Shown here: positions 4,146 to 54,038 of the stretch, one piece after another
Numbering within the stretch: the stretch's first letter is position 1
Layout of the letters: each line of letters opens with the position of its first letter
Origin: Alphaproteobacteria bacterium
Lineage (GTDB): Bacteria; Pseudomonadota; Alphaproteobacteria; Micavibrionales; UBA2020
Direction of reading: 5' to 3'
DNA length: 64,000 nucleotides
NCBI GenBank assembly: GCA_016124645.1
Contig: WGNE01000034.1
Location: 19,852 to 83,851, forward strand
Program-made: the position numbers and the translations under genes
The notes under the pieces: generated by a model
The model's database searches: none
Seen by the model: only the letters and a program-made list of their open reading frames with translations
What the model was told of the DNA's origin: nothing

Positions 4146-4294
4146 TTTTCACCCGTGTAAATAACCGGAATGTTGAAAAACAAAGATAATCTTTGTCTTG
4201 CAGCAACCAAAACTTATGCTAGAACGTTATATATAGTGGAATTGTCTTACTGGCAATTCTACTGGCAGAAATTCCAAGAAAGGCGGAACACAAG

Positions 4295-4861: not shown

Positions 4862-5413
4862 TTAAAAGTCGCAGGCCTTGCTGATGGCGTCATAGGCATC
4901 CGCGCTGCCGTGCAGGCTGTAGGTGTCGGTGATGACGTTGCCCCGGCCCGAGGTGCCGCGCACCGTCACGGCGCTGCCGCGGCGCAGGGCGTCGGTCAGG
5001 CGCTCGTCCCCGGCGCCGTCGGTCATCCATGCCATGTCGGCATCCGCGTTCTTGCGCACGTTCGCGCCGGTCTCCATCGTGAAATCCGTGCCATCGACGG
5101 TGATCGAGACCTTGCTGCCCTTGCGGTAGGGGAAACCGGCCGAAACAGTGACGGCGGTCTTCTCGCGGTCCTGCGGCCAGTGGGTGATGAAGAGGAAGGA
5201 CGCATCGCGGTTCTTCAGGTGCATGCTGCTGCGCGTGGATTTGGGTGCGCTGGCCATGTAGCAGACCTTGCGACCGCCGTCCATGAAATAGGCCGCGCTC
5301 CAGTCGCCGTACTGGCCGATGGGGGTGGCGTCGCCGCCGGCCGCCTGCGCCGCCGCGCTTGCCAGAAGGACCGCCAGACCGGTCGAAGTCGCCAGAAGAT
5401 GGAATGCTTTCAT
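4862..5413 (-). CDS. invasion-associated locus B (IalB)-like exported protein
   Basis: Start set at MKAFHLLATSTGLAVLLASAAAQAAG (signal peptide; GAAGGAGG Shine-Dalgarno upstream). WSAAYFMDGGRKVCYMAS and the C-terminal Cys pattern resemble the IalB family. Confidence 0.7.
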   Translation of the reverse strand: MKAFHLLATSTGLAVLLASAAAQAAGGDATPIGQYGDWSAAYFMDGGRKVCYMASAPKSTRSSMHLKNRDASFLFITHWPQDREKTAVTVSAGFPYRKGSKVSITVDGTDFTMETGANVRKNADADMAWMTDGAGDERLTDALRRGSAVTVRGTSGRGNVITDTYSLHGSADAYDAISKACDF

Positions 5414-19580: not shown

Positions 19581-19655
19581 AATTATTTCATGGCTAAAAC
19601 CATGGAAATACCGAATTATTTCATGGCTAAAACCATGAAATTGAATTATTTTATG
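19581..19655. promoter_or_regulatory. tandem 33-bp palindrome-containing repeats in the aspS/rnd divergent region
   Basis: AATTATTTCATGGCTAAAACCATG(G)AAAT occurs twice (19581-19608 and 19614-19642), plus a partial third copy. Each contains ATTTCATGG-N6-CCATGAAAT. Confidence 0.5.
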
Positions 19656-43063: not shown

Positions 43064-43138
43064 GCCGTTGTAGCTCAGTGGTAGAGCATTCGCTTCGTAA
43101 GCGAGTGGTCGGAGGTTCGAATCCTCTCAACGGCACCA
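43064..43138 (+). tRNA. tRNA-Thr (anticodon CGU), CCA encoded
   Basis: Hand-folded cloverleaf: acceptor GCCGTTG/CAACGGC, D arm GCTC-AGTGGTA-GAGC, anticodon arm TTCGC-TTCGTAA-GCGAG (CGT), T arm GGAGG-TTCGAAT-CCTCT, then A-CCA. Confidence 0.9.
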
Positions 43139-43169
43139 TTTTTCTTTTCATTGCAAGTCTGGACTGGCT

Positions 43170-43283
43170 GGCCGCACCCGTGACGGTCAGGATATTCCCC
43201 GCGAGGTCGTAGGTATAAGCGGTGGTCAGCGCATTGCCGCCGCGCGTGTCCGTCTCCTGCGTCACGCGCCCGAGGGCGTCGCA
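43170..43283 (-). pseudogene. orphan rhs YD-core fragment
   Basis: Encodes DALGRVTQETDTRGGNALTTAYTYDLAGNILTVTG, about 85% identical at DNA level (by eye) to rhs 45755-45858. It has no start codon and runs towards the tRNA. Confidence 0.75.
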
Positions 43284-43293
43284 GGGAGCGAAA

Positions 43294-43519
43294 TTTCAAT
43301 ATTTCAATTTACTCCGACCCCCTTGATTTAGCGTCGCGTTCAGGGAAGTGTCGGAGGGTGCGGAGTTTCAATATTTCAATTTACTCCGACCCCATTGATT
43401 AGGTGCCCCTTGTAGGCGGCCCCGCAGCCGGTGGAGGAATCGTAGGTCAGCGTCGCGTTCAGGGAAGTGTCGGAGGGTGTGGGGTTTCAATATTTCAATT
43501 TACTCCGACCCGGTTGATT
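43294..43519. repeat. three 35-bp direct repeats interleaved with rhs-core-derived inserts
   Basis: TTTCAATATTTCAATTTACTCCGACCC-NN-TTGATT at 43294-43328, 43366-43400 and 43485-43519. The inserts (37 nt and 84 nt) match rhs 45948-45976 and 45899-45976. Confidence 0.85.
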
Positions 43520-43553
43520 AACCCCATTGATTATTGATTGGAATAGAATCTAT

Positions 43554-44276
43554 TTATTTTGCATCTTTTGATTTACGTGCTGCACGGGCATTCCGAATCT
43601 CGTGCACAAACTCATCTATAATGGACTGCATTCTCTCTATATCGCTTTTAGAATATGAGGGATCTTCTATTTGCAGAGCCATCCCCAACGCTGATAAATC
43701 AAAATTCTTTAAAATTATTTGTTCAATAGCTTCGGTTCTAACGCCGCGATACATGGCCAATATATGCTCTATACCATGAACTGCACTCCGCCTAGCCAAA
43801 GCACAACCATGTTGCAACATATTCGCTATTGTTGAGGCGACCACAGATAAGACTTCCGTTTCACGGCTAAGACTGTTTTTTTTGAATGCACAATAAGTAA
43901 AAACAGAATCCCACCACATATAACCAGCTACATTAAGATTCGCGTTTTTGCAAAGAAGATCATCGAATAGCGATCCAATCGCCTCTATGCACTCTTTTTT
44001 CTGCTGAAACTGCACTGCATCACTCACCACAAATCGTAAAAATCCATTCGGCCCCGGTATGAACCAAAGCCCTTGGTCTATTTGGCCTATTGTATATTTT
44101 TCAGTCAGTCCCGCCGAGCTTTTAAACATGCGCGTCATATACGACACAGCCATCACCTCGGGACACGTATAGCCCCATGCTTCATCATTGTGCCAAGCGA
44201 AAAGAATATCAGTTACAGGATGGTCGAATACAAAGTCCAGCCACTCCTCATAAGAAATATTAGACAGGTCATGCAT
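43554..44276 (-). CDS. putative Rhs-toxin immunity protein (unknown family)
   Basis: 240-aa AT-rich ORF starting 11 nt downstream of the rhs stop, on the same strand. No signal peptide or TM helix. Called by position only. Confidence 0.6.
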   Translation of the reverse strand: MHDLSNISYEEWLDFVFDHPVTDILFAWHNDEAWGYTCPEVMAVSYMTRMFKSSAGLTEKYTIGQIDQGLWFIPGPNGFLRFVVSDAVQFQQKKECIEAIGSLFDDLLCKNANLNVAGYMWWDSVFTYCAFKKNSLSRETEVLSVVASTIANMLQHGCALARRSAVHGIEHILAMYRGVRTEAIEQIILKNFDLSALGMALQIEDPSYSKSDIERMQSIIDEFVHEIRNARAARKSKDAK

Positions 44277-44287
44277 ATGATGAACAC

Positions 44288-47200
44288 CTACATTGCCAAT
44301 GCCGCAATTATTAAAACCGTACCTAAAGACATGGAAGCAGCGGCCGCAGCGGTGTTCGGGTCTGGCACACTTGGTACCGAGGTCGGGCCACTATTCTTTG
44401 TCTTGGTATAGCCTCCCCACTTCCAACGCGGGATCATCGGTGACGAAAAACTACGCGTAGGGGGGGCTCCGTGACATACACCTGTATCGATCTGTTGCTC
44501 GTATATATCATAGCATTTTCCAAGCATCGTACACTGCTGGTGAATTTGTTGTGCATGCCCCCACCAGTCTTCAAAAGGCTGGCCACTCAATGAGTATGGA
44601 ACCATCTGCAAGGTTCTCACTGCTATAGATATTTTAAGCAGTGAAATCTTCTTTTCCAATTCCTCACAAGTGTCCTCTGTCGTACAGCTTTTAAGTTCAT
44701 GAGTAGTGTAATAGTTTAACCCCAAAAGATCGATTACATTGACTGGGTCCTGTCCAACGTAACCGAAGGTATTCATCCCGCCCGCAAGCCCAATAGGATC
44801 AGAGCTGATATAGCGTCCAATAGCCGGATTATAATACCTGTTCCAGTTGGCGAAAAGCCCGGATTCTGAGTCATAATACTGCCCCGGCATCCGAAGGTTG
44901 ACCGTCACGCTGCCGCTGGGCGTGCTGGTGCCGAAGGCATCGTTATTCCACGACCAGACCTGCGTACCGCCGGTATTGGTGGCGAATCTCGGTGTTCCCA
45001 AATGGTCCGTATGCAGATACGTGAGAACCTCGGGGCTGCCCGCGTCGATCTGGGCCAAGGGTGCGCCATTCAGATAGACGTACTCGCGGATGAAGTTGCC
45101 GGAGGTGTCGTATTCGCCGAAGAGCTGCCCATTGGGGCCATAGACGTAATAGGTCGTGCTGCTCGCCGTCACCTTCTTGGAGCGGCGGTGCAGCCAGTCG
45201 TAGGTATAGACGCCCGCCGTGGTGTTGACGGTGGCGAGGTTGCCCGCCGCGCTCCATGTGTAGGCGTTGGTGCCGTCGTTGGTGATGTTGCCGGCGGCGT
45301 CGTAGGTGTAGCTGTTCGCGCCGACCGCGCTGATCTTGTTGCTGGTGCTGGGCACGGTGGTCGTCGTGGTCGTGCCGTCGTCCTTGGTCAGGCGGTTGGA
45401 GGTGGCGTCGTAGGTGTAGCTGGTGGCGGTGCCGGGGTTTTCGGCATTGACGCGCAGCAGGGCGTCGTAGCCGTAGGTGGTGGCCCCCGCCTGCGTGACG
45501 TTGCCGTCGTCGTCCGTCGTATAGGTCCAGTTCGCGATGCCGCCGGAGACGGTGATGTTGGTCGGGTTGTAGTCCTGGTTGTACGTCGCGCTGTACGTCA
45601 GACTGTTGCCGTAGGTGAAGCCGCTCATCGGGCCGAAGGGCAGGTAGGCGGCGGAGCTCGCCAGCGTCGTGCCGGTGGAGTTCACCACGGCGGAGACGCC
45701 GCTCGCCTGCCCGTTCGCGTTGCGGGTATAGGTTACGACGCGGCCCGAGGGCAGCGTAATAGTCGCGATGTTCCCCGCGAGGTCATACGTGTACGCCGTC
45801 GTCAGCGCATTGCCGCCGCGCGTGTCGGTTTCCTGCGTCACGCGGCCGAGGTCGTCGTACTGGAACGCCGTCGTCCCCGCCGCGTCGGAGACGCTGCACA
45901 GGTGGCCCTTGTAGGGCGTGCCGCAGCCGGTGCTCGCGTCATAGGTCAGCGTCGCGTTCAGGGAAGTGTCGGAGGGATAGGCCACCGACGTCAACCGGTT
46001 GAGCGCGTCATAGGTGTAGTTGGTGACGACGCTGCGCGCATCCGTGCGCTGGGTCACGTTGCCCGCCTTGTCCACCGTGTAGGACAGCGTGCCCCGGTCC
46101 GGGCTCGTCTCCCCCGTCACGTCGCCGAAGGCGTTGTAGGTATAGGTGGTGGAGTTGCTGCGCTGGTCCTCGACCGAGGTCAGGTTATCCAGCGCGTCAT
46201 ACCCGTTGGTGGCGACGCCGGAGAGCGCGTCGGTCTGGGTCAGCAGCCTTTGCAGCCCGTCATAGGCGTAGGCGGTGGCGTTGTTGTTCGGGTCCGTGTA
46301 GCTGGTGAGCTGGCTGTTGCCGTCATAGGCGTAGTTTGCCGTCTGGCTCGACGCGCCGATGCTCTGGATGATGCGGGAGAGCGCGTCGAAGACTTTCTGG
46401 TGCGTGTATTTGAGGGCCGCGGAACTGTCCTTCACGTCCTCCTGCGTGATGTTGCCCGCATCGTCCAGCGTGTAGGTGATGGTGTTGCCCAGCGCGTCTT
46501 CCACGCCCGTCAGCCGCTGCGCGGAATCGTAGCTGTATTGCAGGTAGGCGCTGTTGGGCAGCGTGACCTTGGTGAGGTTGCCGTTGTCGTCGTAGTCGAA
46601 GGTGGTTTCCGCCTCGAGCGCCGTGCCGACCGCGCGGGTGGAGGTTTGCAGGCGGCCGTTGGTGTCATAGGTGTAATCCGTCTCCGTCCCGTTGGGGTCC
46701 GTGACCTCCGTCGGGCGGCCCGCCGAATCGCGCGAGACGATGGTGGTCACCTGCCCCAGCGCGTTGGTGATGGTTTTAAGGTCGAGGTTCGAATCATAGG
46801 TGTAATCCGTCGTGTCCGTCACATCCGTGCGCGGCCCGTCCACCTGCTCCAGCCGGCCGAGGATGGTATTGCCGCTGCCGTCGGTGGAGTTGGCGTAATA
46901 GGTATAGGTCGTGATGCGGGTGTCGGAGGTATTGGTGTCCGTCACCGTCTTCGACGTCACGCGGCCGTAGGTGTCGTAGTCGTAATCCGTCGTCCGGCCC
47001 GTTTCCGTGATCAGGTCGGGGAGGTTGTAGGTCGGGTCGTAGGTGATGGTCGTGATTTGCTGGTCGTCGGTATCCGCGTCGCGGGTGATTTGCGTGATGT
47101 TGCCGCGGTCGTCGTATTGGTAGCGGGTGGTGTTGTTCTCCCAGTCCGTTTTGCCGATGACGCGGCCCTTGTCGTCGTAGTTGTAATAGCGGCTCGCCGC

Positions 47201-49363
47201 CGAGGTATGGGCGGTGGCCGCGCGGTTTTCCTGCGTGATCCTGCGCACGTCCAGAATATTGGTGTAGTAAAAATCGCTGTCCTGGCTCAAGGCGTTGGTG
47301 GTGGTGGAGGTCTGGCCCGCGTTGTAGTTCACATCGGTATTGCTGGCGCCCCCCGCCAGCTGCGACTGGACGGCCTTGCCGTTCGTGTCATAGGTATAGG
47401 TGGCGTAGCGCGTGCCGCTTTCATCGGTGATGCCCGTCAGCGCGTTGACGTAAGTTGCGTTCTCGTAGTGGTAGCCGATGGTCTTGGTATCCGGCTTGGT
47501 CACGGTCTCGAGGTTGCCGTTCCCGTCATAGGCATAGCTGAAGGCGCCGTCTGGCGTGACCATCGTCGCGATGCGCCCGCTGGAATAGGTGAAACTGAGC
47601 GACCGCCCGTTCTCGTTGGTGACGGAGGTCAGCTGGCCCGAGCCGTTATAGGCAAGGTTCAGCGCCCCGCCGCCCAGATACTCGATGCGCGTGAGCTGGT
47701 AGGAGCTGTTGTATTTCTCGACCGTGTCGTTCGGCAGGGTGTAGATATATCCCCCGCTGCCGTCGTCCGCCAGCGTCGCCGTGGTGTCGGCATCGTCCGC
47801 CACCCAGTCCGATCCGCTCTTCGTATAGCCCGTGACCGCGCCCGTGCCGTCGGTGATCGAGGCCGTCGTGCCGCCGGTGACGGTCAGCGTGCGCGCGTAA
47901 TTCGTGCGCCAGAGCTGCCCGATCGTGTTGTCCGTCCACGTGCTGTCCGAGCGGTAGATGCGCGAGAAGGTCAATCCGCCCGCGTTGTAATCCGTCGCCG
48001 ATTCTGTCAGGTAGCCGACATCGAAGTTGATGGGGTCGCCGGCAAGGCTGCTTCGCCCCTCGTTGCATGTCACGCAATACCTGCCTGCCTTTGTTGCGTC
48101 AGATGCGGCAACCGTCGTCGGCGTCGTTGTCTGGCTCACCGTGTAAGGACCGGTGTTGTAGTTATAATAGCCCTTAAGGGTGATGGTATATTGACCGGTT
48201 TGAGGTAAAGTCGAGGATAAAGAATTGTAAGCCCACCCCCAGTAAGTACCGTCAGGCTTGATGAAAGTCATAGCCCTCGTAAACGAACCCGTGGTCGTGA
48301 TGGAAACATGATTGCCCGATGTGCCCGTAAAGAAATAGCTGTCAATACCGTTCTTTGGCAGGTTCCCGGAGCGGGTATCTCCGCTGATAAGACTACCGCC
48401 CGAAACGTTTTCTCCGCCAAACTGAGTATAAAGAATGTAAGGGCCGGTGTCATAACGATAATAGCCATACAAAACGACTGTATAGGTACCGCTAACAGGC
48501 AGCGTTACGGCTAAACGGGTGTTTCCCACGGTCCAGTAGCTGCCATCAGGCTTATACAGGTTGATGTGCGCAGTGTAAGAAGCGTTGTCAAAAAGCTGGA
48601 CGTACTGCCCTGCAGTACCTTCCAACTGAAAGCTTTCAATGCCGTTCGTAGGCAGTATGCCGTTATAGGGTTGAGCGCTTACCAACTTACCGTTTGAAAC
48701 CCCACCGCCGCCGAGCTGGTAATACATTGTGAAAGGGCCATACATCGGGTTTGTGCCGGAAGTATATGACGTCATGGCCACAGTGTAGGTTCCGCTGGAA
48801 GGAAGCTGAACACTCAGCAGATCATGGGAAGATCCCCAGTAGCTGCCATCTGATTTATATATATAGATATTGGTTGTATAGTTGGGAGAATGGGTCGTAA
48901 TGAGAACATTCTGCCCGGAATTTCCAGTTAAATGGAAACTCGCAACGCTGTTCCTGTTAGCCAGTGAGCCGTTATAAGGTTGTCCGCTCGTCAGGTCACC
49001 GTTTGCAACGTCTCCTTCCCCGAGTAAATAATCGAAGCTAAAATCGCCAGTGCCTGAAGAGAACTCAGGGGATACGGCTAAATCATAAGTTCCGGTATCG
49101 GGAAGCGTGACGACAAGACGATTGTTCGCAGAGGTCCAGCTACTGCCGTCAGGCTTTTTTATAACCATATGTATGCCATAGGTAGAGTAAGCGCCGAGGA
49201 TAATCCCCTGTCCGGCTGTCCCTGTAAAGCTGTAGTGCAGAGTCGCGCCGACAGCAAGAAACCCGTTTGTCGTCGTGCCGCTGGTGATTGTCGTCGCATG
49301 CGCCGGAGCAGCATGGAAAAAGAGGAACGCGGAAACTAAAATACCAAATAAAAACTTCTTCAT
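44288..49363 (-). CDS. Rhs/YD-repeat polymorphic toxin with Sec signal peptide and N-terminal beta-sandwich repeats
   Basis: Signal peptide MKKFLFGILVSAFLFFHAAPAHA. Four units of about 100 aa (..GTYTV..DGSYW..). Rhs plug GDPINFDVGYLTESATDY. Dozens of YD repeats. Core end NRYYNPAIGRYISSDPIGLAGG...DPVNVIDLLGL. A 142-aa C-terminal module follows. Confidence 0.92.
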   Translation of the reverse strand: MKKFLFGILVSAFLFFHAAPAHATTITSGTTTNGFLAVGATLHYSFTGTAGQGIILGAYSTYGIHMVIKKPDGSSWTSANNRLVVTLPDTGTYDLAVSPEFSSGTGDFSFDYLLGEGDVANGDLTSGQPYNGSLANRNSVASFHLTGNSGQNVLITTHSPNYTTNIYIYKSDGSYWGSSHDLLSVQLPSSGTYTVAMTSYTSGTNPMYGPFTMYYQLGGGGVSNGKLVSAQPYNGILPTNGIESFQLEGTAGQYVQLFDNASYTAHINLYKPDGSYWTVGNTRLAVTLPVSGTYTVVLYGYYRYDTGPYILYTQFGGENVSGGSLISGDTRSGNLPKNGIDSYFFTGTSGNHVSITTTGSFTRAMTFIKPDGTYWGWAYNSLSSTLPQTGQYTITLKGYYNYNTGPYTVSQTTTPTTVAASDATKAGRYCVTCNEGRSSLAGDPINFDVGYLTESATDYNAGGLTFSRIYRSDSTWTDNTIGQLWRTNYARTLTVTGGTTASITDGTGAVTGYTKSGSDWVADDADTTATLADDGSGGYIYTLPNDTVEKYNSSYQLTRIEYLGGGALNLAYNGSGQLTSVTNENGRSLSFTYSSGRIATMVTPDGAFSYAYDGNGNLETVTKPDTKTIGYHYENATYVNALTGITDESGTRYATYTYDTNGKAVQSQLAGGASNTDVNYNAGQTSTTTNALSQDSDFYYTNILDVRRITQENRAATAHTSAASRYYNYDDKGRVIGKTDWENNTTRYQYDDRGNITQITRDADTDDQQITTITYDPTYNLPDLITETGRTTDYDYDTYGRVTSKTVTDTNTSDTRITTYTYYANSTDGSGNTILGRLEQVDGPRTDVTDTTDYTYDSNLDLKTITNALGQVTTIVSRDSAGRPTEVTDPNGTETDYTYDTNGRLQTSTRAVGTALEAETTFDYDDNGNLTKVTLPNSAYLQYSYDSAQRLTGVEDALGNTITYTLDDAGNITQEDVKDSSAALKYTHQKVFDALSRIIQSIGASSQTANYAYDGNSQLTSYTDPNNNATAYAYDGLQRLLTQTDALSGVATNGYDALDNLTSVEDQRSNSTTYTYNAFGDVTGETSPDRGTLSYTVDKAGNVTQRTDARSVVTNYTYDALNRLTSVAYPSDTSLNATLTYDASTGCGTPYKGHLCSVSDAAGTTAFQYDDLGRVTQETDTRGGNALTTAYTYDLAGNIATITLPSGRVVTYTRNANGQASGVSAVVNSTGTTLASSAAYLPFGPMSGFTYGNSLTYSATYNQDYNPTNITVSGGIANWTYTTDDDGNVTQAGATTYGYDALLRVNAENPGTATSYTYDATSNRLTKDDGTTTTTTVPSTSNKISAVGANSYTYDAAGNITNDGTNAYTWSAAGNLATVNTTAGVYTYDWLHRRSKKVTASSTTYYVYGPNGQLFGEYDTSGNFIREYVYLNGAPLAQIDAGSPEVLTYLHTDHLGTPRFATNTGGTQVWSWNNDAFGTSTPSGSVTVNLRMPGQYYDSESGLFANWNRYYNPAIGRYISSDPIGLAGGMNTFGYVGQDPVNVIDLLGLNYYTTHELKSCTTEDTCEELEKKISLLKISIAVRTLQMVPYSLSGQPFEDWWGHAQQIHQQCTMLGKCYDIYEQQIDTGVCHGAPPTRSFSSPMIPRWKWGGYTKTKNSGPTSVPSVPDPNTAAAAASMSLGTVLIIAALAM

Positions 49364-49411
49364 ATCGGCCCTCTTCCCGCAAAAAACGTCTAAAAGCGCT
49401 GCAGTTAAAAT

Positions 49412-50047
49412 TTAATTTTTCCGGCGGAAGTCGATTTCCACGGCCTTGTATTCCTGCCCCGCGCTGCCGGTGAGATAAATCGTCACCTTGTATGTATCGC
49501 TGCTGGTGAATGCGATCTCCGAACGGTATGGCCGTTCCTTGTCTAGCAAGGGGAACATCAGCTTTCCCTTTTGCTCGAGTGCATTATTCTTTTTATCGTA
49601 TTGTCCGGTTCCGGTTGTCATGCTGGTATGGTTGTCATCCAGCCATACGGAGGTGAAGGCTTTTTTAATCCTGTCGTAGCCGAGATAACCTATAGCGTTA
49701 TAGGGGATGTTCTGGCCGCCGATATTCAGGGGAACACTCGTCTCGAGCGACAGGAAGCGGTTGTTGAAAATCATCTTGTTGGTCGTATAGCCCGTGGACA
49801 TTTGGGCGGGCGCGCCTTTTTTGCTCCAAAAATTGAGGTCGTAATCCCAGTCCCCGACGAGGGCGGCCAGAATCTGGTTCTGCTCAGAAGCTTCCCCCTG
49901 CTTTTCCAGTTTCTGCATGGCCTCCTTGCCCAGCAATTCGGCGCGTGGCGCGGGCGTTGCCTTGGCCTTCTGCGCCGCAAACGCGGGCGCGCCGGTTCCG
50001 GCCATCAAAAAAACTGCAATGAATAATGCGATGAAAGACCTGCTCAT
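49412..50047 (-). CDS. DUF1579-like exported protein
   Basis: Signal peptide (FIALFIAVFLMAGTGAPAFA). LVGDWDY...GYLGYDRIKKAFTSVWLDDNHTSMTTGTGQYDKK...YKAVEIDFRRKN fits the DUF1579 pattern as I recall it. Confidence 0.55.
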   Translation of the reverse strand: MSRSFIALFIAVFLMAGTGAPAFAAQKAKATPAPRAELLGKEAMQKLEKQGEASEQNQILAALVGDWDYDLNFWSKKGAPAQMSTGYTTNKMIFNNRFLSLETSVPLNIGGQNIPYNAIGYLGYDRIKKAFTSVWLDDNHTSMTTGTGQYDKKNNALEQKGKLMFPLLDKERPYRSEIAFTSSDTYKVTIYLTGSAGQEYKAVEIDFRRKN

Positions 50048-50312
50048 CTATTCCCCTCTTGTGAACAGCGCCGGAAAGCCTGGCTGCGAAGCTGAAACGA
50101 TGTGACCCACAACCGCCCGGTCTTCCCGCCCGGCGCGGATGACGCCAGACGAAAAGAAGAATCCGTCACGGACTGGTTTTTATCTTTTCCATGATACGAC
50201 CGCAAGGTTAATAAATAGAGAATTTTTCAACCTGAGCACGTATGTGTGCGGCGAGGGTGACGGCAACGGAAAAGCTGCCGGGCCGTATAAACGAAACCGA
50301 AAATAAAAAAAA

Positions 50313-50903
50313 TCAGGAAGGTTTTCTTTGCGCCTTTTGTCCCTGCGCTGCGGGGCGCGCGGGCGGGCTTGAGGTTATCTCCCATGTCGCATCGAAGGCT
50401 TTCTTGTCGATGCCGGTGACGTGGCCCTTGTCGTCCACCTTCAGCGTCGCGCCGGTGAAGAGGAACTGGTGCTGCCCGGCGCCCCAGGCGTCCTTGATGC
50501 AGGAGGGCTCGCGCACCGCTTCCTGCAGCAGGCTGGCGGTCTTCGTGCTTTTCACGCGCACGCCGCCGTGTTCGTAATCGTCGGCGGTGATCTCGTAGCC
50601 CTTGCTTTCCAGCGCGCTGAACTGCCAGCGCGTGCCGTCGGTATTGCCGGGCACATAGACGTCGTCCGGGTTGTGCAGGTTGGTGAAGATGGCGTCGCCT
50701 TTTCGCGCGGTATAGACAGATTCGATCTTGCCCTTGGTGTTCTTGGTCTCGATGCGCTCGCCGCCCTGCGCGCAACGCACCAGCGTTTCCGTCGCCTTGC
50801 GTCCCTGCGCCGCGCCGCTGAAATCGACCGCCGCCACGTCCAGCACCTTGCAACGCGTGCCGTCGGGGCTGTCGATGTATTCTTCCTTGTAGGGCAGGCC
50901 CAT
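50313..50903 (-). CDS. hypothetical protein
   Basis: 196-aa ORF, chosen over the overlapping Arg/Gly-rich ORF 50227-50964. No motif recognised. Confidence 0.45.
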   Translation of the reverse strand: MGLPYKEEYIDSPDGTRCKVLDVAAVDFSGAAQGRKATETLVRCAQGGERIETKNTKGKIESVYTARKGDAIFTNLHNPDDVYVPGNTDGTRWQFSALESKGYEITADDYEHGGVRVKSTKTASLLQEAVREPSCIKDAWGAGQHQFLFTGATLKVDDKGHVTGIDKKAFDATWEITSSPPARPAAQGQKAQRKPS

Positions 50904-50986
50904 TTTCGCATCCTCTTCCTCTAAGATGATACAGGAGGAAGGTTAAAAAGGGCTGAGCGCGCAAACAATTGAAAATAAAACGATAT

Positions 50987-51892
50987 TTAAAGCGATTTCG
51001 CCAACGCGAGACCGAGCAGGATGGTGAGCAGCGGGCCGAGGGTCTGCTGCAGGGCGGTCAGCGCGTCATCCGTCTGCTTGTTGTAATATTCGGCGACATG
51101 GGCGAGCGTCTGGGAAAGATTGCCTGAATTCTCCCCCGCCTTCAGCATCACGACGGACATGCGGTCGGCGTAGCGGCACTTGACGAAGGCCTCCGCCAGC
51201 GACGCGCCCGCCTGCACGCGCGGAATGGCGGCCGCGAGGTCGTCGCGCAGCACGAGGTTGGGCACCACCCCCACCGCGATCTCCAGCCCGCGCCGCAGCG
51301 GGATGCCCGCCATATAGGCCATGCCCAGCGCGTCGGCGAAGCGCGCATAGGAATACTGCCGGATGAAGCGCGCGCCGGGACCGCTCATCAGGAACAAATG
51401 GTCGGTCAGACGCCGCACCCCCGGCACATAGCGGCGGCCCCAGGTGACGGCGAAGACGGCGGCGAGGACGCCGACCGCCAGCTTCGGAAAAAGGCTGTGC
51501 CGCTTGACGAGCGCCATGCCCGCGATGACCACGGCGGCGATCTTCGGCTGCAGCGTCGCGCGGCGCATCTGGCGGCTGTGGTTTTCGACCTGTTCGTAAT
51601 AATCCTTGCAGCGTTCCAGCACGCGGGCGAGCTTGCCCGATTCCTCCCCCGCCGCCACCAGCCCGCGCACCGCGTCGTCGAACAAATGCGGGTAAAGCCC
51701 CATCGCCTCGTACAGCTTGCCGCCGCCGCGCAGGAACGCGGACATGTTGCGCCATTTTTTCGCCAGCCCCGGAATCTCTTCGTCCTGCGCCGCCGCGTCG
51801 AGCGACTGCATCAGCGGCAGTCCCGCCTTCTCCATCTGCGAGAGATGGAGGAAAAAGCTGGTGAGGGCGCGGGCGGTTTTTTTCGAGGCCAT
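50987..51892 (-). CDS. type II secretion system F / PilC-like inner-membrane platform protein (orphan)
   Basis: Two T2SS-F-type domains (FFLHLSQMEKAGLPLMQSLD...VAAGEESGKLARVLE and ALGMAYMAGIPLRRGLE...LKAGENSGNLSQTLAHVAEYY) separated by TM helices. Confidence 0.7.
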   Translation of the reverse strand: MASKKTARALTSFFLHLSQMEKAGLPLMQSLDAAAQDEEIPGLAKKWRNMSAFLRGGGKLYEAMGLYPHLFDDAVRGLVAAGEESGKLARVLERCKDYYEQVENHSRQMRRATLQPKIAAVVIAGMALVKRHSLFPKLAVGVLAAVFAVTWGRRYVPGVRRLTDHLFLMSGPGARFIRQYSYARFADALGMAYMAGIPLRRGLEIAVGVVPNLVLRDDLAAAIPRVQAGASLAEAFVKCRYADRMSVVMLKAGENSGNLSQTLAHVAEYYNKQTDDALTALQQTLGPLLTILLGLALAKSL

Positions 51893-51897
51893 GCGGT

Positions 51898-52767
51898 TTA
51901 AGGTTTCTTCGGCCCGCCGTCGGGCGCATCCGCCGGCTCGACGGTCAGGCCCATCGGCAGCAGGATGTCCTTGCCACCCGCCCGGTACTGGACGAAGTAT
52001 TTCAAAAATCCCGCGCGCTTCGGGTGCAGAATGAAGATGACCGGGGTGAAGCCGCGGTCGTCCGGCGATTTCGGCGCGAAGCCGACGGTGTACATGTGCT
52101 GCACCGTCGAAAAATCGTCATAGAAACCGACGATATAGGCGAAGCCGTCCATCACCGGTTGCAACCCGGCGAAGGGCATGCTGTTCTTTTCGTCGATATA
52201 AAGCTTTCCGATGGCATCCTTGCCCGCCTTCACCGTCTTGCCGTCCCAGATCACGTAGATGCTGCTGCCCTCGAGCTTCACGCGCTGGGCGAAGATCTTG
52301 TTGACGCAAAAGCTCTTGCAGGGCTCCTTGCCCGGCAGCAACGCCGGAATGTCCTGCGCGGGCTTGCCCTTCGGCTTGATCTCGACGAAAACCTTGTAGT
52401 CGTGCGGCTGCTGCGGCGTGAAGGAAAAGATGTAGTTGCCGGGCATGCCGTCGGGTCGCGGGAAGATGTGCTGGAAATCCTGCAGGCTCTGGTCCACCAC
52501 CAGCAGGTTGATCTTGTCGTCGCCGACGGGGTCGAGCTTGCGTAGCGTCACCGGGTCGCCGTCCCCGTCCGTCAGGCGCAGGCTGAGATGCGCTTCCTGC
52601 CCCTTGACCAGCGGCACGACGGATTCGACATGCGCGTGATAGGTAGGCGCACCGTAGGGGATGTTTTGCGGCGTGTCCTGCGTCGCGCGCGCGCCGCCCG
52701 CGCCGCAAATAACGAAAGCGCCGCACATGAAAAACGCAAAGACGCGTGAAAAAGAAATCGCTGACAT
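51898..52767 (-). CDS. exported hypothetical protein (possible Ig-like/YtkA-FixH-like fold)
   Basis: Signal peptide. KINLLVVDQSLQDFQHIFPRPDGMPGNYIFSFTPQQPHDYKVFVEIKP resembles YtkA/FixH-type periplasmic domains. Weak, motif-level evidence only. Confidence 0.5.
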   Translation of the reverse strand: MSAISFSRVFAFFMCGAFVICGAGGARATQDTPQNIPYGAPTYHAHVESVVPLVKGQEAHLSLRLTDGDGDPVTLRKLDPVGDDKINLLVVDQSLQDFQHIFPRPDGMPGNYIFSFTPQQPHDYKVFVEIKPKGKPAQDIPALLPGKEPCKSFCVNKIFAQRVKLEGSSIYVIWDGKTVKAGKDAIGKLYIDEKNSMPFAGLQPVMDGFAYIVGFYDDFSTVQHMYTVGFAPKSPDDRGFTPVIFILHPKRAGFLKYFVQYRAGGKDILLPMGLTVEPADAPDGGPKKP

Positions 52768-53175
52768 GAAAAAAAACCCGCTTTCGCCGTTTACCGCCGC
52801 GCGCCTTGCACCCCCGCGCTTCCATGATAAATTATGCCACAGATTGCCCGCGCAAAGGAACAGCGCAGGGCATGATTCCGCGGGTTTTCATAGGCGGAGA
52901 TGCGTGCGAAAACGCCGCGCGGCGCGCATGCGAATCGTCCGTCATTGCGGGAATCTTCTGTGAAAAGCGTCATTTTCCATGTGCGAATGCACAAAAATTT
53001 GCGCGCGATTGAACGCAATTTCAAAAAAAATTTTCGTTTTGTTTTCAACGCGTTTTTTTGCGCTGCGGGAAAACCGGAAAATATTTGTCTGGACAAAACG
53101 CGCCAATCTTCTCTAAGACCGAAATGGGGCAGCTAGAAGGTCCCATCGCATTAACACCTAACAAGGAGAGATGCC

Positions 53176-53307
53176 ATGAGCAACGAAGAAAACAAAACCG
53201 AAGAGCAAGCAGCTCCCGCACAAGCGGAAGAGAAAAAGGAAGAGGGCGCCTGCACCGAAGGTGCAAAAGAAGAAGGTGCCTGCACCGCCGACAAAGGCGC
53301 TGCATAA
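53176..53307 (+). CDS. small acidic Cys-containing peptide (43 aa)
   Basis: My own translation gives MSNEENKTEEQAAPAQAEEKKEEGACTEGAKEEGACTADKGAA. AAGGAGAG Shine-Dalgarno 6 nt upstream and a strong terminator downstream. Below the ORF-track cutoff. Confidence 0.5.
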   Translation: MSNEENKTEEQAAPAQAEEKKEEGACTEGAKEEGACTADKGAA

Positions 53308-53327
53308 GCTCTTCCCTCTCTTTGAGG

Positions 53328-53370
53328 AAAAAAGAAGCCGGGTTGTCGAAAACCCGGCTTCTTGCTGTTT
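53328..53370 (+). terminator. Rho-independent terminator
   Basis: AGAAGCCGGGTT-GTCGAA-AACCCGGCTTCT followed by a T-rich tract. Confidence 0.75.
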
Positions 53371-53483
53371 ACGCGGCGGCGCAGCATGCATTTTATCTTT
53401 GTTTTACAGTGACTTTTTCCTGCGCGCTTGCCAGAACCGGCATGTTTGTCTAAGATAACAGGCAAGCAAAAAAGAGGAAAAGC

Positions 53484-54038
53484 ATGACGACACCTGCACT
53501 GCAGATCGTGAAGGCGCTGAATTTCGCGGCGCAGAAACACACCGACCAGCGCCGCAAGGGCGAACGCGCGGAGCCCTACGTCAACCACCTCACCGAAGTC
53601 GCCGAGCTTCTGGCCACGCATACCGGCGGCACGAACACCGACGTCATCCTCGCCGGCATCCTGCACGACACGGTGGAGGACACGAAAACCACGCGCGACG
53701 AACTGGTGCGCGAATTCGGCGAGAACATCGCGGACATCGTGATGGAATGCACCGACGACAAGAGCCTGCCGAAGGCCGAGCGCAAGCGCCTGCAGGTCGA
53801 AAACGCGCCGCATAAATCCGACGACGCGAAGATGGTGAAGATGGCGGATAAAATCTCCAACCTGCGCGCCATCCTGCTCAGCCCGCCGCCCGACTGGGAA
53901 CTGTCGCGCAAACAGGAATACTTCGACTGGGCCAAGAAAGTCGTCGATGGTTGCCGCGGCGTGAACGCGGGTCTGGAGAAGGAATTCGACAAGACTTATG
54001 CCCGCGGCGTGAAGACCTTCGGCATGAAGGCGGCGTAA
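53484..54038 (+). CDS. HD-domain (p)ppGpp hydrolase-like protein (small alarmone hydrolase, Mesh1/SpoT-hydrolase type)
   Basis: ALNFAAQKHTDQRRKGERAEPYVNHLTEVA...AGILHDTVEDT...ADIVMECTDD...KMADKISNLR. Confidence 0.75.
   Translation: MTTPALQIVKALNFAAQKHTDQRRKGERAEPYVNHLTEVAELLATHTGGTNTDVILAGILHDTVEDTKTTRDELVREFGENIADIVMECTDDKSLPKAERKRLQVENAPHKSDDAKMVKMADKISNLRAILLSPPPDWELSRKQEYFDWAKKVVDGCRGVNAGLEKEFDKTYARGVKTFGMKAA

What the first reader, a model, noticed from the sequence alone, without database searches (positions are those of the whole stretch)
43170..43519. CRISPR-like mini-array whose inserts are fragments of the adjacent rhs core
Three direct copies of TTTCAATATTTCAATTTACTCCGACCC-NN-TTGATT lie at 43294-43328, 43366-43400 and 43485-43519, and the 27-nt core is identical in all three. 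They sit between the immunity-gene stop and the tRNA. The two intervening segments (37 and 84 nt) are not random. Both copy the rhs YD-core near 45899-45976; their last ~30 nt are identical to 45948-45976 and the rest is about 85% identical by eye. The short insert is a nested subset of the long one. A third diverged core fragment (43170-43283, matching 45755-45858) follows repeat 1. On the rhs coding strand the repeat reads AATCAA-NN-GGGTCGGAGTAAATTGAAATATTGAAA(C), ending like the ATTGAAAC 3' handle of many CRISPR repeats. No orphan toxin/immunity cassette accompanies the fragments, so this is not the usual orphan-module arrangement. Possible explanations are scars of serial recombination at a fixed junction in the core, a small mobile element targeting that site, or a transcribed regulatory or antisense RNA array against rhs.
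Basis: seen in the sequence. Interest (0 to 1): 0.75.

Follow-up and report, generated by a model that had tools for sequence, protein, structure and literature searches.

The report
REP-type repeats trapping rhs gene scraps
The three 35-nt repeats are copies of a widespread short mobile repeat linked to a REP-associated (RAYT-type) transposase, re-copied together with scraps of an old rhs gene at the tail of a toxin locus; this is a known kind of repeat cluster, not a CRISPR-like array.

Summary
Three exact 27-nt cores sit at 43294, 43366 and 43485. They are separated by 37- and 84-nt pieces that copy the rhs core, and a third core fragment lies next to tRNA-Thr. The CRISPR-like reading fails. 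The repeat ("T", consensus ATCAAAGGGGTCGGAGTAAATTGAAA) is not private to this locus: a metagenome scan found it in about 15 unrelated contigs with the same sharp edges. In three RAYT-type Y1 transposase loci a T copy lies just upstream of the gene. One of those genes is flanked by inverted T copies, and one comes from the same sample, and probably the same MAG, as this window. Inverted T doublets fold into long REPIN-like hairpins. All three window copies share an 8-nt duplication and the same about 16 nt downstream, so they arose by local re-copying of "T plus flanking DNA". Each copy starts at T's 5' edge and ends at a variable point. Tandem REP/REPIN clusters that include flanking sequence are already described. 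The flanking DNA is the head of a displaced rhs allele that was once functional (15 synonymous versus 4 non-synonymous changes). One mildly new point: T recurs at toxin–immunity cassette ends in several lineages. Interest is low to moderate.

The parts
43064..43138 (+). tRNA-Thr(CGT). This is the conserved chromosomal anchor, and the variable region starts at its 3' end.
   Evidence: ARAGORN and Rfam at 74.5 bits. The glnA-like/tRNA-Thr synteny is kept in seven related MAG loci, but the DNA beyond the tRNA differs in every one.
43139..43178 (-). About 40 nt of non-rhs sequence between the last core fragment and the tRNA.
   Evidence: Homology to the rhs core ends near 43180. The sequence is not conserved in relatives.
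43179..43283 (-). Unit 1 cargo: a diverged rhs core fragment 'd' (equivalent to 45755-45857, Rhs aa ~1169-1203), truncated at both ends.
   Evidence: 84% identical. 10 synonymous versus 1 non-synonymous codon change.
43277..43293 (-). Linker j1 plus the start of an 'a'-like block (rhs-strand TTTCGCTCCCTGCGAC). It is homologous to the 16 nt that follow T2 and T3, and is fused to 'd' at a shared CGAC.
   Evidence: Read directly from the sequence. The repeat finder family D7 aligns 43258-43329 to the 72-nt unit at 78%.
43294..43328 (-). T1: a REP-type repeat (rhs-strand AATCAAGGGGGTCGGAGTAAATTGAAATATTGAAA).
   Evidence: 25/26 match to the family consensus.
43329..43365 (-). Unit 2 cargo: linker j2 (43359-43365, CTCCGCA) plus rhs core block 'a' (43330-43358, identical to 45948-45976).
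   Evidence: j2 plus CCC matches the inverted T arm CTCCGACCCC at 8/10 and forms a weak hairpin with T2, -7.8 kcal/mol.
43366..43400 (-). T2: a REP-type repeat.
43401..43484 (-). Unit 3 cargo: linker j3 (43478-43484, CCCCACA), block 'a' (43449-43477) and diverged block 'b' (43401-43448, equivalent to 45900-45947).
   Evidence: 86% identical to 45900-45976. 5 synonymous versus 3 non-synonymous codon changes.
43485..43519 (-). T3: a REP-type repeat directly downstream of the immunity gene.
   Evidence: The junction is also present in Logan unitig L001.
43521..43539 (-). Stutter: a partial copy of T's 5' end (AATCAATGGGGT, 43521-43532) preceded by one more AATCAAT.
   Evidence: Read directly. The same kind of partial 5'-half copy sits just upstream of T in L101, L103, L106 and L109.
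43554..44276 (-). Immunity gene (240 aa, GC185_08800) for the Rhs C-terminal toxin.
   Evidence: There is no Pfam hit. Homologues at 30-40% identity always follow a homologous toxin CT in other rhs arrays.
44288..49363 (-). Main rhs gene (1691 aa, GC185_08805). It has a signal peptide, RHS repeats and a DPIGL motif, followed by a low-GC toxin tip. The segments copied in the array are a0 45948-45976, b0 45900-45947 and d0 45755-45857.

Best explanation
The 35-nt repeat ('T') belongs to a dispersed family of 26-nt repeats, consensus ATCAAAGGGGTCGGAGTAAATTGAAA. These repeats flank, and are presumably mobilised by, a RAYT-type (REP-associated, IS200-like Y1/HUH) transposase. They are therefore REP-type elements. 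At this locus one T copy lay just downstream of the immunity gene. It was joined to the head of a displaced, 5'-truncated copy of an older rhs allele. The join sits where the core happens to carry CTCCGAC, the complement of T's GTCGGAG. 'T plus what follows it' was then re-copied locally at least twice. Every copy begins exactly at T's 5' edge and runs for a different length (12, 72 and 119 nt) before the next copy starts. A further microhomology deletion (CGAC) fused 'a' to 'd' in the oldest unit. The result is a tandem REP cluster with co-duplicated flanking DNA, which is a described arrangement for REP/REPIN families. Shown here: the family identity of T, its sharp edges, its link to RAYT genes, the common local ancestry of the three copies, and the origin of the cargo in a once-functional rhs allele. 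Inferred: that the fixed start comes from RAYT nicking at T's edge followed by strand transfer to a nearby 3'-OH (or from slippage at that site), and the order of events. The array most likely does nothing for rhs. At most it stops translation in all three frames (TAA, TGA, TGA inside T) and offers short homology for later recombination.
For: (1) T is widespread. A scan with only 18 specified bases returned 20 metagenome loci, and 14 of them also carry the unsearched 5' extension ATCAAAG. Sequence is unrelated immediately beyond both edges. (2) RAYT link. In L114 a Y1_Tnp gene (Pfam 2.6e-17; NCBIfam 'REP-associated tyrosine transposase' 79.4 bits versus 26.9 for the IS200 model) is flanked by T and an inverted T. 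Orthologues at 69% (L117) and 63% (L118) identity each have a T or T-variant 40-84 nt upstream. (3) L117 comes from SRR10063242, the sample that also holds this window's rhs unitig. Its protein accession (MBI1214334.1) falls in the range expected for the window's MAG, given MBI1215900.1 = GC185_08800. (4) REPIN-like doublets exist. The L116 inverted pair folds at -25.9 kcal/mol, z = -10.6. L106 has another pair. L102, L106 and L113 carry several copies within a few kb. (5) The amplification was local. All three window copies share an 8-nt duplication (TATTGAAA) that is absent from the consensus and from the RAYT-proximal copy in the same sample, and they share the same ~16 nt downstream. (6) The restart pattern recurs. 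Partial 5'-half copies sit directly upstream of a full T in four other loci, and L102 has three direct copies after an rhs CT-immunity pair. (7) The T core is constrained. All differences between units fall in the NN and linker positions (P about 1e-4 and 1e-3). (8) The cargo is an old functional allele: 15 synonymous versus 4 non-synonymous changes. (9) Literature. RAYT genes are flanked by REP/REPINs (PMC5581495, PMC3337134). [quoted passage not shown] E. coli TnpA_REP cleaves beside REPs and can transfer the cleaved 5' end to other 3'-OH ends (PMC3479197).
Against: T alone is not a palindrome (-0.2 kcal/mol). It also lacks the GTAG/CGTC tag typical of classical REPs, so it is an atypical member. 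The RAYT model score is just under NCBI's cut-off (79.4 versus 80). Copy number looks low: there are only three copies in this 64-kb window, all at this locus. There are none in about 1.7 Mb of other fetched loci, including the nearest relatives, and none in plasmids. Whether the RAYT lies in the same MAG is inferred from accession numbering and a shared sample; it was not read from the genome. No RAYT is in the window. The linker and NN differences between units are large for a recent duplication, while 'a' is identical. This needs either conservation of 'a' (23 nt are also identical in L094's rhs) or gene conversion. No direct evidence shows that RAYT made these junctions. The CT dinucleotides at two junctions are suggestive at best.
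Confidence: 0.65

Rival explanations
1. Serial cassette turnover. Each T marks the tail of a former rhs-CT/immunity cassette, so three arrivals occurred. The bodies of the older cassettes were later removed by deletions that all stopped at the 5' edge of the next T (transposase-style 'adjacent deletions'), leaving only T plus a truncated core head.
For: In the related MAG locus L094, T sits exactly between each immunity gene and the next orphan rhs module. The distal-most module there is also a truncated head without CT or immunity. L096 ends its array with a stray 'd'-region core fragment. The substantial NN and linker divergence between units fits separate histories.
Against: All three copies share a derived 8-nt duplication and the same downstream ~16 nt. 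Independent cassettes would have to have carried both by coincidence. Two unrelated deletions would have to end at the same nucleotide. No trace of older CT or immunity sequence remains.
Confidence: 0.17
2. T is the recombination site of a cassette system. The Y1 transposase excises and integrates single-stranded circles of 'T plus cargo' at resident T sites, building head-to-tail arrays of toxin-immunity or orphan-rhs cassettes. The mini-array would then be three degenerate cassettes.
For: T copies are in direct orientation and bound orphan modules in L094. T lies at the end of toxin-immunity cassettes in 4 of about 15 independent metagenome loci: rhs in L098, L102 and L109, and barnase-barstar in L110. 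L099, L109 and L110 share the same downstream flank but carry different cassettes upstream of T. Y1 enzymes act on two ends lying on the same strand (PMC3479197).
Against: No cassette circle or empty site has been seen. T lacks the hairpin that Y1 enzymes recognise. Many T copies follow ordinary genes, such as a beta-lactamase and a CCA-adding enzyme. The first orphan in L094 has no T. The enrichment could simply reflect tolerance of insertions in accessory DNA.
Confidence: 0.1
3. Assembly artefact. The de Bruijn graph loops through the short exact repeats (27-nt T, 29-35-nt 'a'), or strain variants were strung together in tandem.
For: The source is a short-read metagenome MAG. The k=31 Logan unitig breaks exactly inside 'a' at both ends, which shows the graph branches there.
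Against: Each unit carries its own variants (NN, linker). The junctions b|T2, a|T1 and T1|d are unique sequences that must exist in reads. The array is only 230 nt, so read pairs span it. Similar multi-T arrangements occur in independent assemblies (L102, L094).
Confidence: 0.05
4. A CRISPR-like or antisense RNA array that targets or regulates rhs.
For: The repeat ends in ATTGAAA(C), like many CRISPR repeats. The inserts match the neighbouring gene, with 29-35 nt of perfect identity.
Against: Spacer lengths are irregular and nested. There is no Rfam CRISPR-DR or other family hit. No significant fold, promoter or terminator was found. No cas or recombinase gene turned up among the neighbouring ORFs tested. 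The same repeat is a dispersed single-copy element beside unrelated genes and flanks a transposase.
Confidence: 0.02

Closest known systems
REP/REPIN elements with their RAYT (TnpA_REP) transposase, including ordered tandem REP/REPIN clusters (P. fluorescens SBW25; E. coli BIMEs)
   Same: A short (26-nt) extragenic repeat lies just after ORFs. It is found as singlets, as inverted doublets that fold into hairpins, and as direct tandem clusters that carry flanking DNA along. A copy sits next to each of three orthologous RAYT-type genes, and one of those genes is bracketed by inverted copies (PMC3116915, PMC5581495).
   Different: The single repeat is not itself a palindrome and has no GTAG/CGTC tag. 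Copy density appears low. The family seems to be shared across contigs of quite different GC content, rather than being lineage-private. It is over-represented at toxin-immunity cassette ends.
Rhs orphan modules / C-terminal displacement arrays
   Same: A remnant of an older rhs allele, once under purifying selection, lies downstream of the current CT-immunity pair. Relatives (L094, L096) have genuine orphan modules in the same position.
   Different: The fragments come from about 350 codons upstream of the core end, rather than from the last ~50 codons. They carry no toxin tip or immunity gene. They are repeated and nested, which displacement alone does not produce.
IS200/IS605-derived non-autonomous elements, and one-ended events of HUH transposases (IS91/ISCR style)
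   Same: One end is fixed and the other is variable. The enzyme class leaves a covalent 5' end that can be joined to other 3'-OH ends (PMC3479197).
   Different: No subterminal hairpins, no defined second end, and no evidence of a target tetranucleotide.
CRISPR arrays, mini-arrays and solitary repeat units
   Same: Direct repeats of about 27-35 nt ending in ATTGAAA(C), with inserts that match a nearby gene.
   Different: There is no regular spacing, no cas context, no repeat-family match, and the inserts are nested duplicates. Elsewhere the repeat is a dispersed singleton that flanks a transposase gene.

Membership tests
REP/REPIN-RAYT system | A Y1/HUH (IS200-like) RAYT gene with the repeat in its immediate flanks, typically in inverted orientation | tested here: met
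   L114 has T(+) 4159-4184, the Y1_Tnp gene, and T(-) 4948-4973. L117 and L118 orthologues have a T or T-variant upstream only. NCBIfam REP_Tyr_transpos scores 79.4 bits, 0.6 below the cut-off.
REP/REPIN-RAYT system | The repeat is dispersed in many extragenic copies in the genome that encodes the RAYT | tested here: inconclusive
   Several copies per few kb occur in L102, L106 and L113, and contexts are unrelated across 15 contigs. This window has only the three clustered copies. The whole MAG could not be scanned. A RAYT with an adjacent T exists in the same sample.
REP/REPIN-RAYT system | Inverted doublets (REPINs) able to form a hairpin | tested here: met
   The L116 doublet folds at -25.9 kcal/mol, z = -10.6. 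A second inverted pair is at L106 10644/10706. The window units form only weak pseudo-hairpins with the rhs-derived CTCCGAC (-4.8 to -10.8 kcal/mol).
REP/REPIN-RAYT system | The individual REP is an imperfect palindrome with a conserved GTAG (or CGTC) tag | tested here: not met
   T alone folds at -0.2 kcal/mol, no better than shuffles. The 26-mer contains no GTAG or CGTC (read directly). It is therefore filed as 'REP-type / RAYT-associated repeat', not as a classical REP.
REP/REPIN-RAYT system | Ordered clusters are tandem repeats that include flanking sequence | tested here: met
   The 72-nt unit (T + linker + 'a') occurs three times at 78-94% identity, with spacings of 72 and 119 nt. The description is in PMC3116915.
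CRISPR array | Regularly spaced identical repeats with unique spacers of similar length | tested here: not met
   Spacers are 37 and 84 nt, and one is nested in the other. TRF finds no array.
CRISPR array | The repeat belongs to a known CRISPR repeat family and/or cas genes are nearby | tested here: not met
   No Rfam hit in the region at E<=1 or in the whole window at gathering score. The 13 ORFs scanned between 41.5 and 56 kb gave no cas domains. The rest of the window and genome was not scanned for cas.
Rhs orphan toxin module | A core 3' fragment running through the PxxxxDPxGL motif, followed by an alternative toxin tip and a cognate immunity gene | tested here: not met
   The fragments correspond to Rhs aa ~1130-1155 and ~1169-1203 only. 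No CT or immunity ORF is present. Genuine orphans in L082-L086, L094 and L096 start at or run through aa ~1500.

The most novel reading that the evidence does not exclude
T is more than a passenger. The RAYT-type transposase and its 26-nt repeat might form a cassette-handling system for polymorphic toxins. Under this reading, T marks the 3' boundary of toxin-immunity and orphan-rhs cassettes, and nicking or strand transfer at T drives their capture, stacking and loss. That would explain why T recurs at cassette ends in several lineages, and why the same flank carries different cassettes upstream of T.
Probability: 0.1. Interest if true: 0.65.

Novelty: new member of a known kind. Interest (0 to 1): 0.3.

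Why it matters
It removes a false lead: there is no new CRISPR-like or antisense system here. It also shows how a REP-type repeat can mimic one. The repeat has direct copies and an ATTGAAAC-like end, and its 'spacers' match a neighbouring gene only because flanking DNA is duplicated along with it. It adds an uncharacterised, non-palindromic RAYT-associated repeat family from uncultured Micavibrio-like alphaproteobacteria. It also raises a modest, testable idea that such repeats help shape the distal ends of rhs and other polymorphic-toxin arrays. No such link turned up in the literature search.

Tried and rejected
- **Exact 27-mer scans.** Scans of GTDB representative genomes and JGI metagenomes found nothing. 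The window's copies carry a private 8-nt duplication, and only the relaxed 18-base pattern worked.
- **DGR-type mutagenesis.** Rejected. The differences from the core are not adenine-specific and are mostly synonymous.
- **Structured RNA, terminator or promoter.** No significant fold, no Rfam family and no consensus sites.
- **tRNA-targeting integrase island.** About 10 kb (43139 to ~53400) is inserted relative to relatives, but no integrase was found. The 8-nt GGTCGGAG match between T and the tRNA is at chance level.
- **T as part of the toxin/immunity cassette itself.** Rejected. Distant homologues of the cassette (L082-L093) lack T.
- **Simple insertion of T into a contiguous orphan core.** Rejected. 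Removing the T copies does not restore a continuous core, because 'a' stays duplicated.
- **The 66-nt insert between T copies in L102.** It looks YD-like (TASILTDYEFPTASQTDWNGNR) but could not be shown to be rhs-derived.
- **Plasmid database search with the REPIN-like doublet.** No match.
- **Literature search for the sequence.** Only an irrelevant yeast paper.
- **RAYT orthologue contigs.** Two could not be fetched because the sample files were too large.

Full report
**1. The observation**

The finding is accurate. The 27-nt core TTTCAATATTTCAATTTACTCCGACCC occurs three times in the window (43294, 43366, 43485), and nowhere else even with three mismatches. None is expected by chance. Each copy continues NN-TTGATT.

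On the minus strand the order is as follows:
- rhs, 49363-44288: 1691 aa, with a signal peptide, RHS repeats, a DPIGL motif and a low-GC toxin tip
- a 240-aa gene, 44276-43554
- a 12-nt partial repeat
- T3
- 84 nt
- T2
- 37 nt
- T1
- a 105-nt core fragment
- about 40 nt
- tRNA-Thr, which lies on the plus strand

The 240-aa gene is a real immunity gene. Its homologues (30-40% identity) always follow a homologous toxin tip in other rhs arrays.

Both inserts contain a 29-nt block identical to rhs 45948-45976. The long insert continues into 45947-45900 at about 77% identity. The third fragment matches 45857-45755 at 84%. The 7 nt between each repeat and the core block are not rhs sequence in any of five alleles examined.

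A Logan unitig from SRR10063242 is identical to 45971-43450 and breaks inside the 29-nt block at both ends.

**2. The cargo is a dead piece of a different, once-functional rhs allele**

Against the present gene the fragments show 15 synonymous and only 4 non-synonymous codon changes, including an AGC>TCC serine switch. They did not decay from the current gene. They derive from an older or foreign allele that evolved under selection.

They come from Rhs residues ~1130-1203, about 350 codons before the core ends. That is unlike classical orphans, which begin near residue 1500.

Related MAG loci have true orphan modules in the same position. L094's rhs core is 75-81% identical and L096's is 58-74% identical. 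L096 also ends its array with a stray fragment of the same 'd' region.

**3. What the repeat is**

The exact 27-mer is absent from GTDB representative genomes and JGI metagenomes. The related locus L094 gave the first lead. It has two near-copies, each lying exactly between an immunity-gene stop and the next orphan module.

A relaxed scan (GGGNCGGAGTAAATTGAAA) then returned 20 metagenome contigs. Fourteen of them also carry the unsearched extension ATCAAAG, and sequence diverges immediately beyond both edges. This defines a 26-nt element, ATCAAAGGGGTCGGAGTAAATTGAAA.

Its features:
- It typically sits just after an ORF on the same strand.
- It sometimes supplies that ORF's stop codon (...SKGSE*).
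- It occurs in several copies per contig in L102, L106 and L113.
- It forms inverted doublets in L116 and L106.

The L116 doublet folds into a 25-bp hairpin (-25.9 kcal/mol, z = -10.6), whereas a single T does not fold.

In L114 an IS200-like Y1 transposase gene is bracketed by T and an inverted T. Its best curated match is NCBIfam 'REP-associated tyrosine transposase' (79.4 bits against a cut-off of 80; the IS200 model scores 26.9).

Two orthologues of this transposase also have a T or T-variant just upstream:
- L117 (69% identical) begins inside T, 40 nt before the start codon.
- L118 (63% identical) has a 22/26 variant 84 nt upstream.

L117 comes from SRR10063242, the sample that contains this window's rhs. 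Its NCBI accession (MBI1214334.1) lies within the range expected for the window's MAG. This is an inference from numbering.

This is the signature of a REP/REPIN-RAYT system (PMC5581495, PMC3337134). There are caveats. T is not itself palindromic, it lacks the GTAG/CGTC tag, and it appears to be low-copy.

**4. How the array formed**

All three window copies share an 8-nt duplication (ATTGAAAT ATTGAAA). It is absent from the family consensus and from the RAYT-proximal copy in the same sample. All three are also followed by the same ~16 nt (yTyCGCw CCCTsCGAC). They therefore descend from one local ancestor. They are not three independent insertions.

Each unit starts at the same nucleotide of T and runs 12, 72 or 119 nt before the next unit starts. 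The same 'restart' grammar appears in L101, L103, L106 and L109, where a partial 5' half sits directly upstream of a full T. It also appears as three direct copies after an rhs cassette in L102.

Differences between units fall only in two positions inside T (NN) and in the 7-nt linker (P about 1e-4 and 1e-3 under uniformity). The T core is therefore constrained. The 'a' block is a conserved stretch, with 23 nt also identical in L094's rhs.

The rhs block begins CCCTCCGAC, which contains the exact complement of T's GTCGGAG. The best-preserved linker plus CCC matches the inverted T arm at 8/10. The likely origin is a T doublet whose second arm recombined with the core at this microhomology. That would have created 'T plus a 5'-truncated core head'. 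The oldest unit additionally lost 'a-b-c' by a CGAC microhomology deletion.

Tandem clusters of REPINs 'including the flanking sequences' are the commonest higher-order arrangement in P. fluorescens SBW25 (PMC3116915). E. coli TnpA_REP cleaves beside REPs and can, in principle, transfer the covalently held 5' end to any 3'-OH (PMC3479197). This gives a plausible, though untested, source for the fixed start and variable end.

**5. Rivals**

- **Serial cassette displacement followed by deletions ending at T** remains possible. L094 shows T between real orphan modules. But this model needs the shared derived duplication to be a coincidence.
- **A RAYT/T cassette system for toxins** is the most novel reading. 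It is supported only by the recurrence of T at toxin-immunity cassette ends, in 4 of about 15 metagenome loci plus this window and L094. It is also supported by L099, L109 and L110, which share one flank but carry different cassettes.
- **An assembly artefact** is unlikely, because each unit carries its own variants.
- **A CRISPR-like or antisense function** has no support.

**6. Verdict**

This is a REP-type repeat cluster with co-duplicated rhs debris: a new member of a known kind. The side observation about toxin-cassette boundaries is worth a systematic test.

Noticed in passing
window 43139-53400: About 10 kb is inserted between tRNA-Thr and the HD-domain gene (53484-54038) relative to Micavibrio-like relatives, where these neighbours are 0.5-3.5 kb apart. 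The insert holds rhs, the immunity gene, a DUF1579 gene, a T2SS-F-like gene and others. No integrase was found, and the DNA right after the tRNA differs in every relative.
   Followed up: partly
window 49412-50047 (minus strand); L095 6245-6937; L096 3200-3820: A DUF1579 gene sits immediately upstream of this rhs family in three separate genomes. It may be a conserved accessory or chaperone partner.
   Followed up: no
window 48100-49363 (Rhs aa 1-420): The Rhs protein has a Sec-type signal peptide and four tandem ~95-aa N-terminal repeats (TSG..G.L..G....F.G.AGQ...PDGS.W...L...LP.TGTY). No PAAR, VgrG or T6SS marker was seen, so export may not depend on T6SS.
   Followed up: no
L094 4445-4560, 6233-6345, 2775-2860: The orphan rhs modules in the related MAG each begin with their own ATG and a conserved ~30-aa leader (..SLARKLASSTALTPANDNFRFRL..). 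This leader replaces the upstream core and joins it at DANGNVTQAG. That suggests the 'orphans' may be independently translated short Rhs proteins.
   Followed up: partly
L096 9520-9650; L094 2685-2730: A second, unrelated short repeat (GAATTCGGGGGACACAATACTTA, in tandem and partial copies) lies after immunity genes in two rhs arrays. It is another cassette-boundary repeat family.
   Followed up: no
L099, L109, L110 (downstream of T): Three metagenome contigs share a MobA/VirD2-type relaxase gene just beyond T. Upstream of T they carry different cassettes: an rhs CT-immunity pair, barnase-barstar, and an unknown ORF. This points to a variable toxin slot on a mobilisable element.
   Followed up: partly
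window 44288-44860 and 43554-44276; L082-L090: The ~165-aa toxin tip and its 240-aa immunity protein form a conserved pair with no Pfam family. Homologues occur in soil and rhizosphere metagenome rhs orphan arrays.
   Followed up: partly
window 19581-19655: A 33-nt tandem repeat (2.4 copies, 88% match; AATTATTTCATGGCTAAAACCATGGAAATACG) contains a palindromic core. It was not examined.
   Followed up: no
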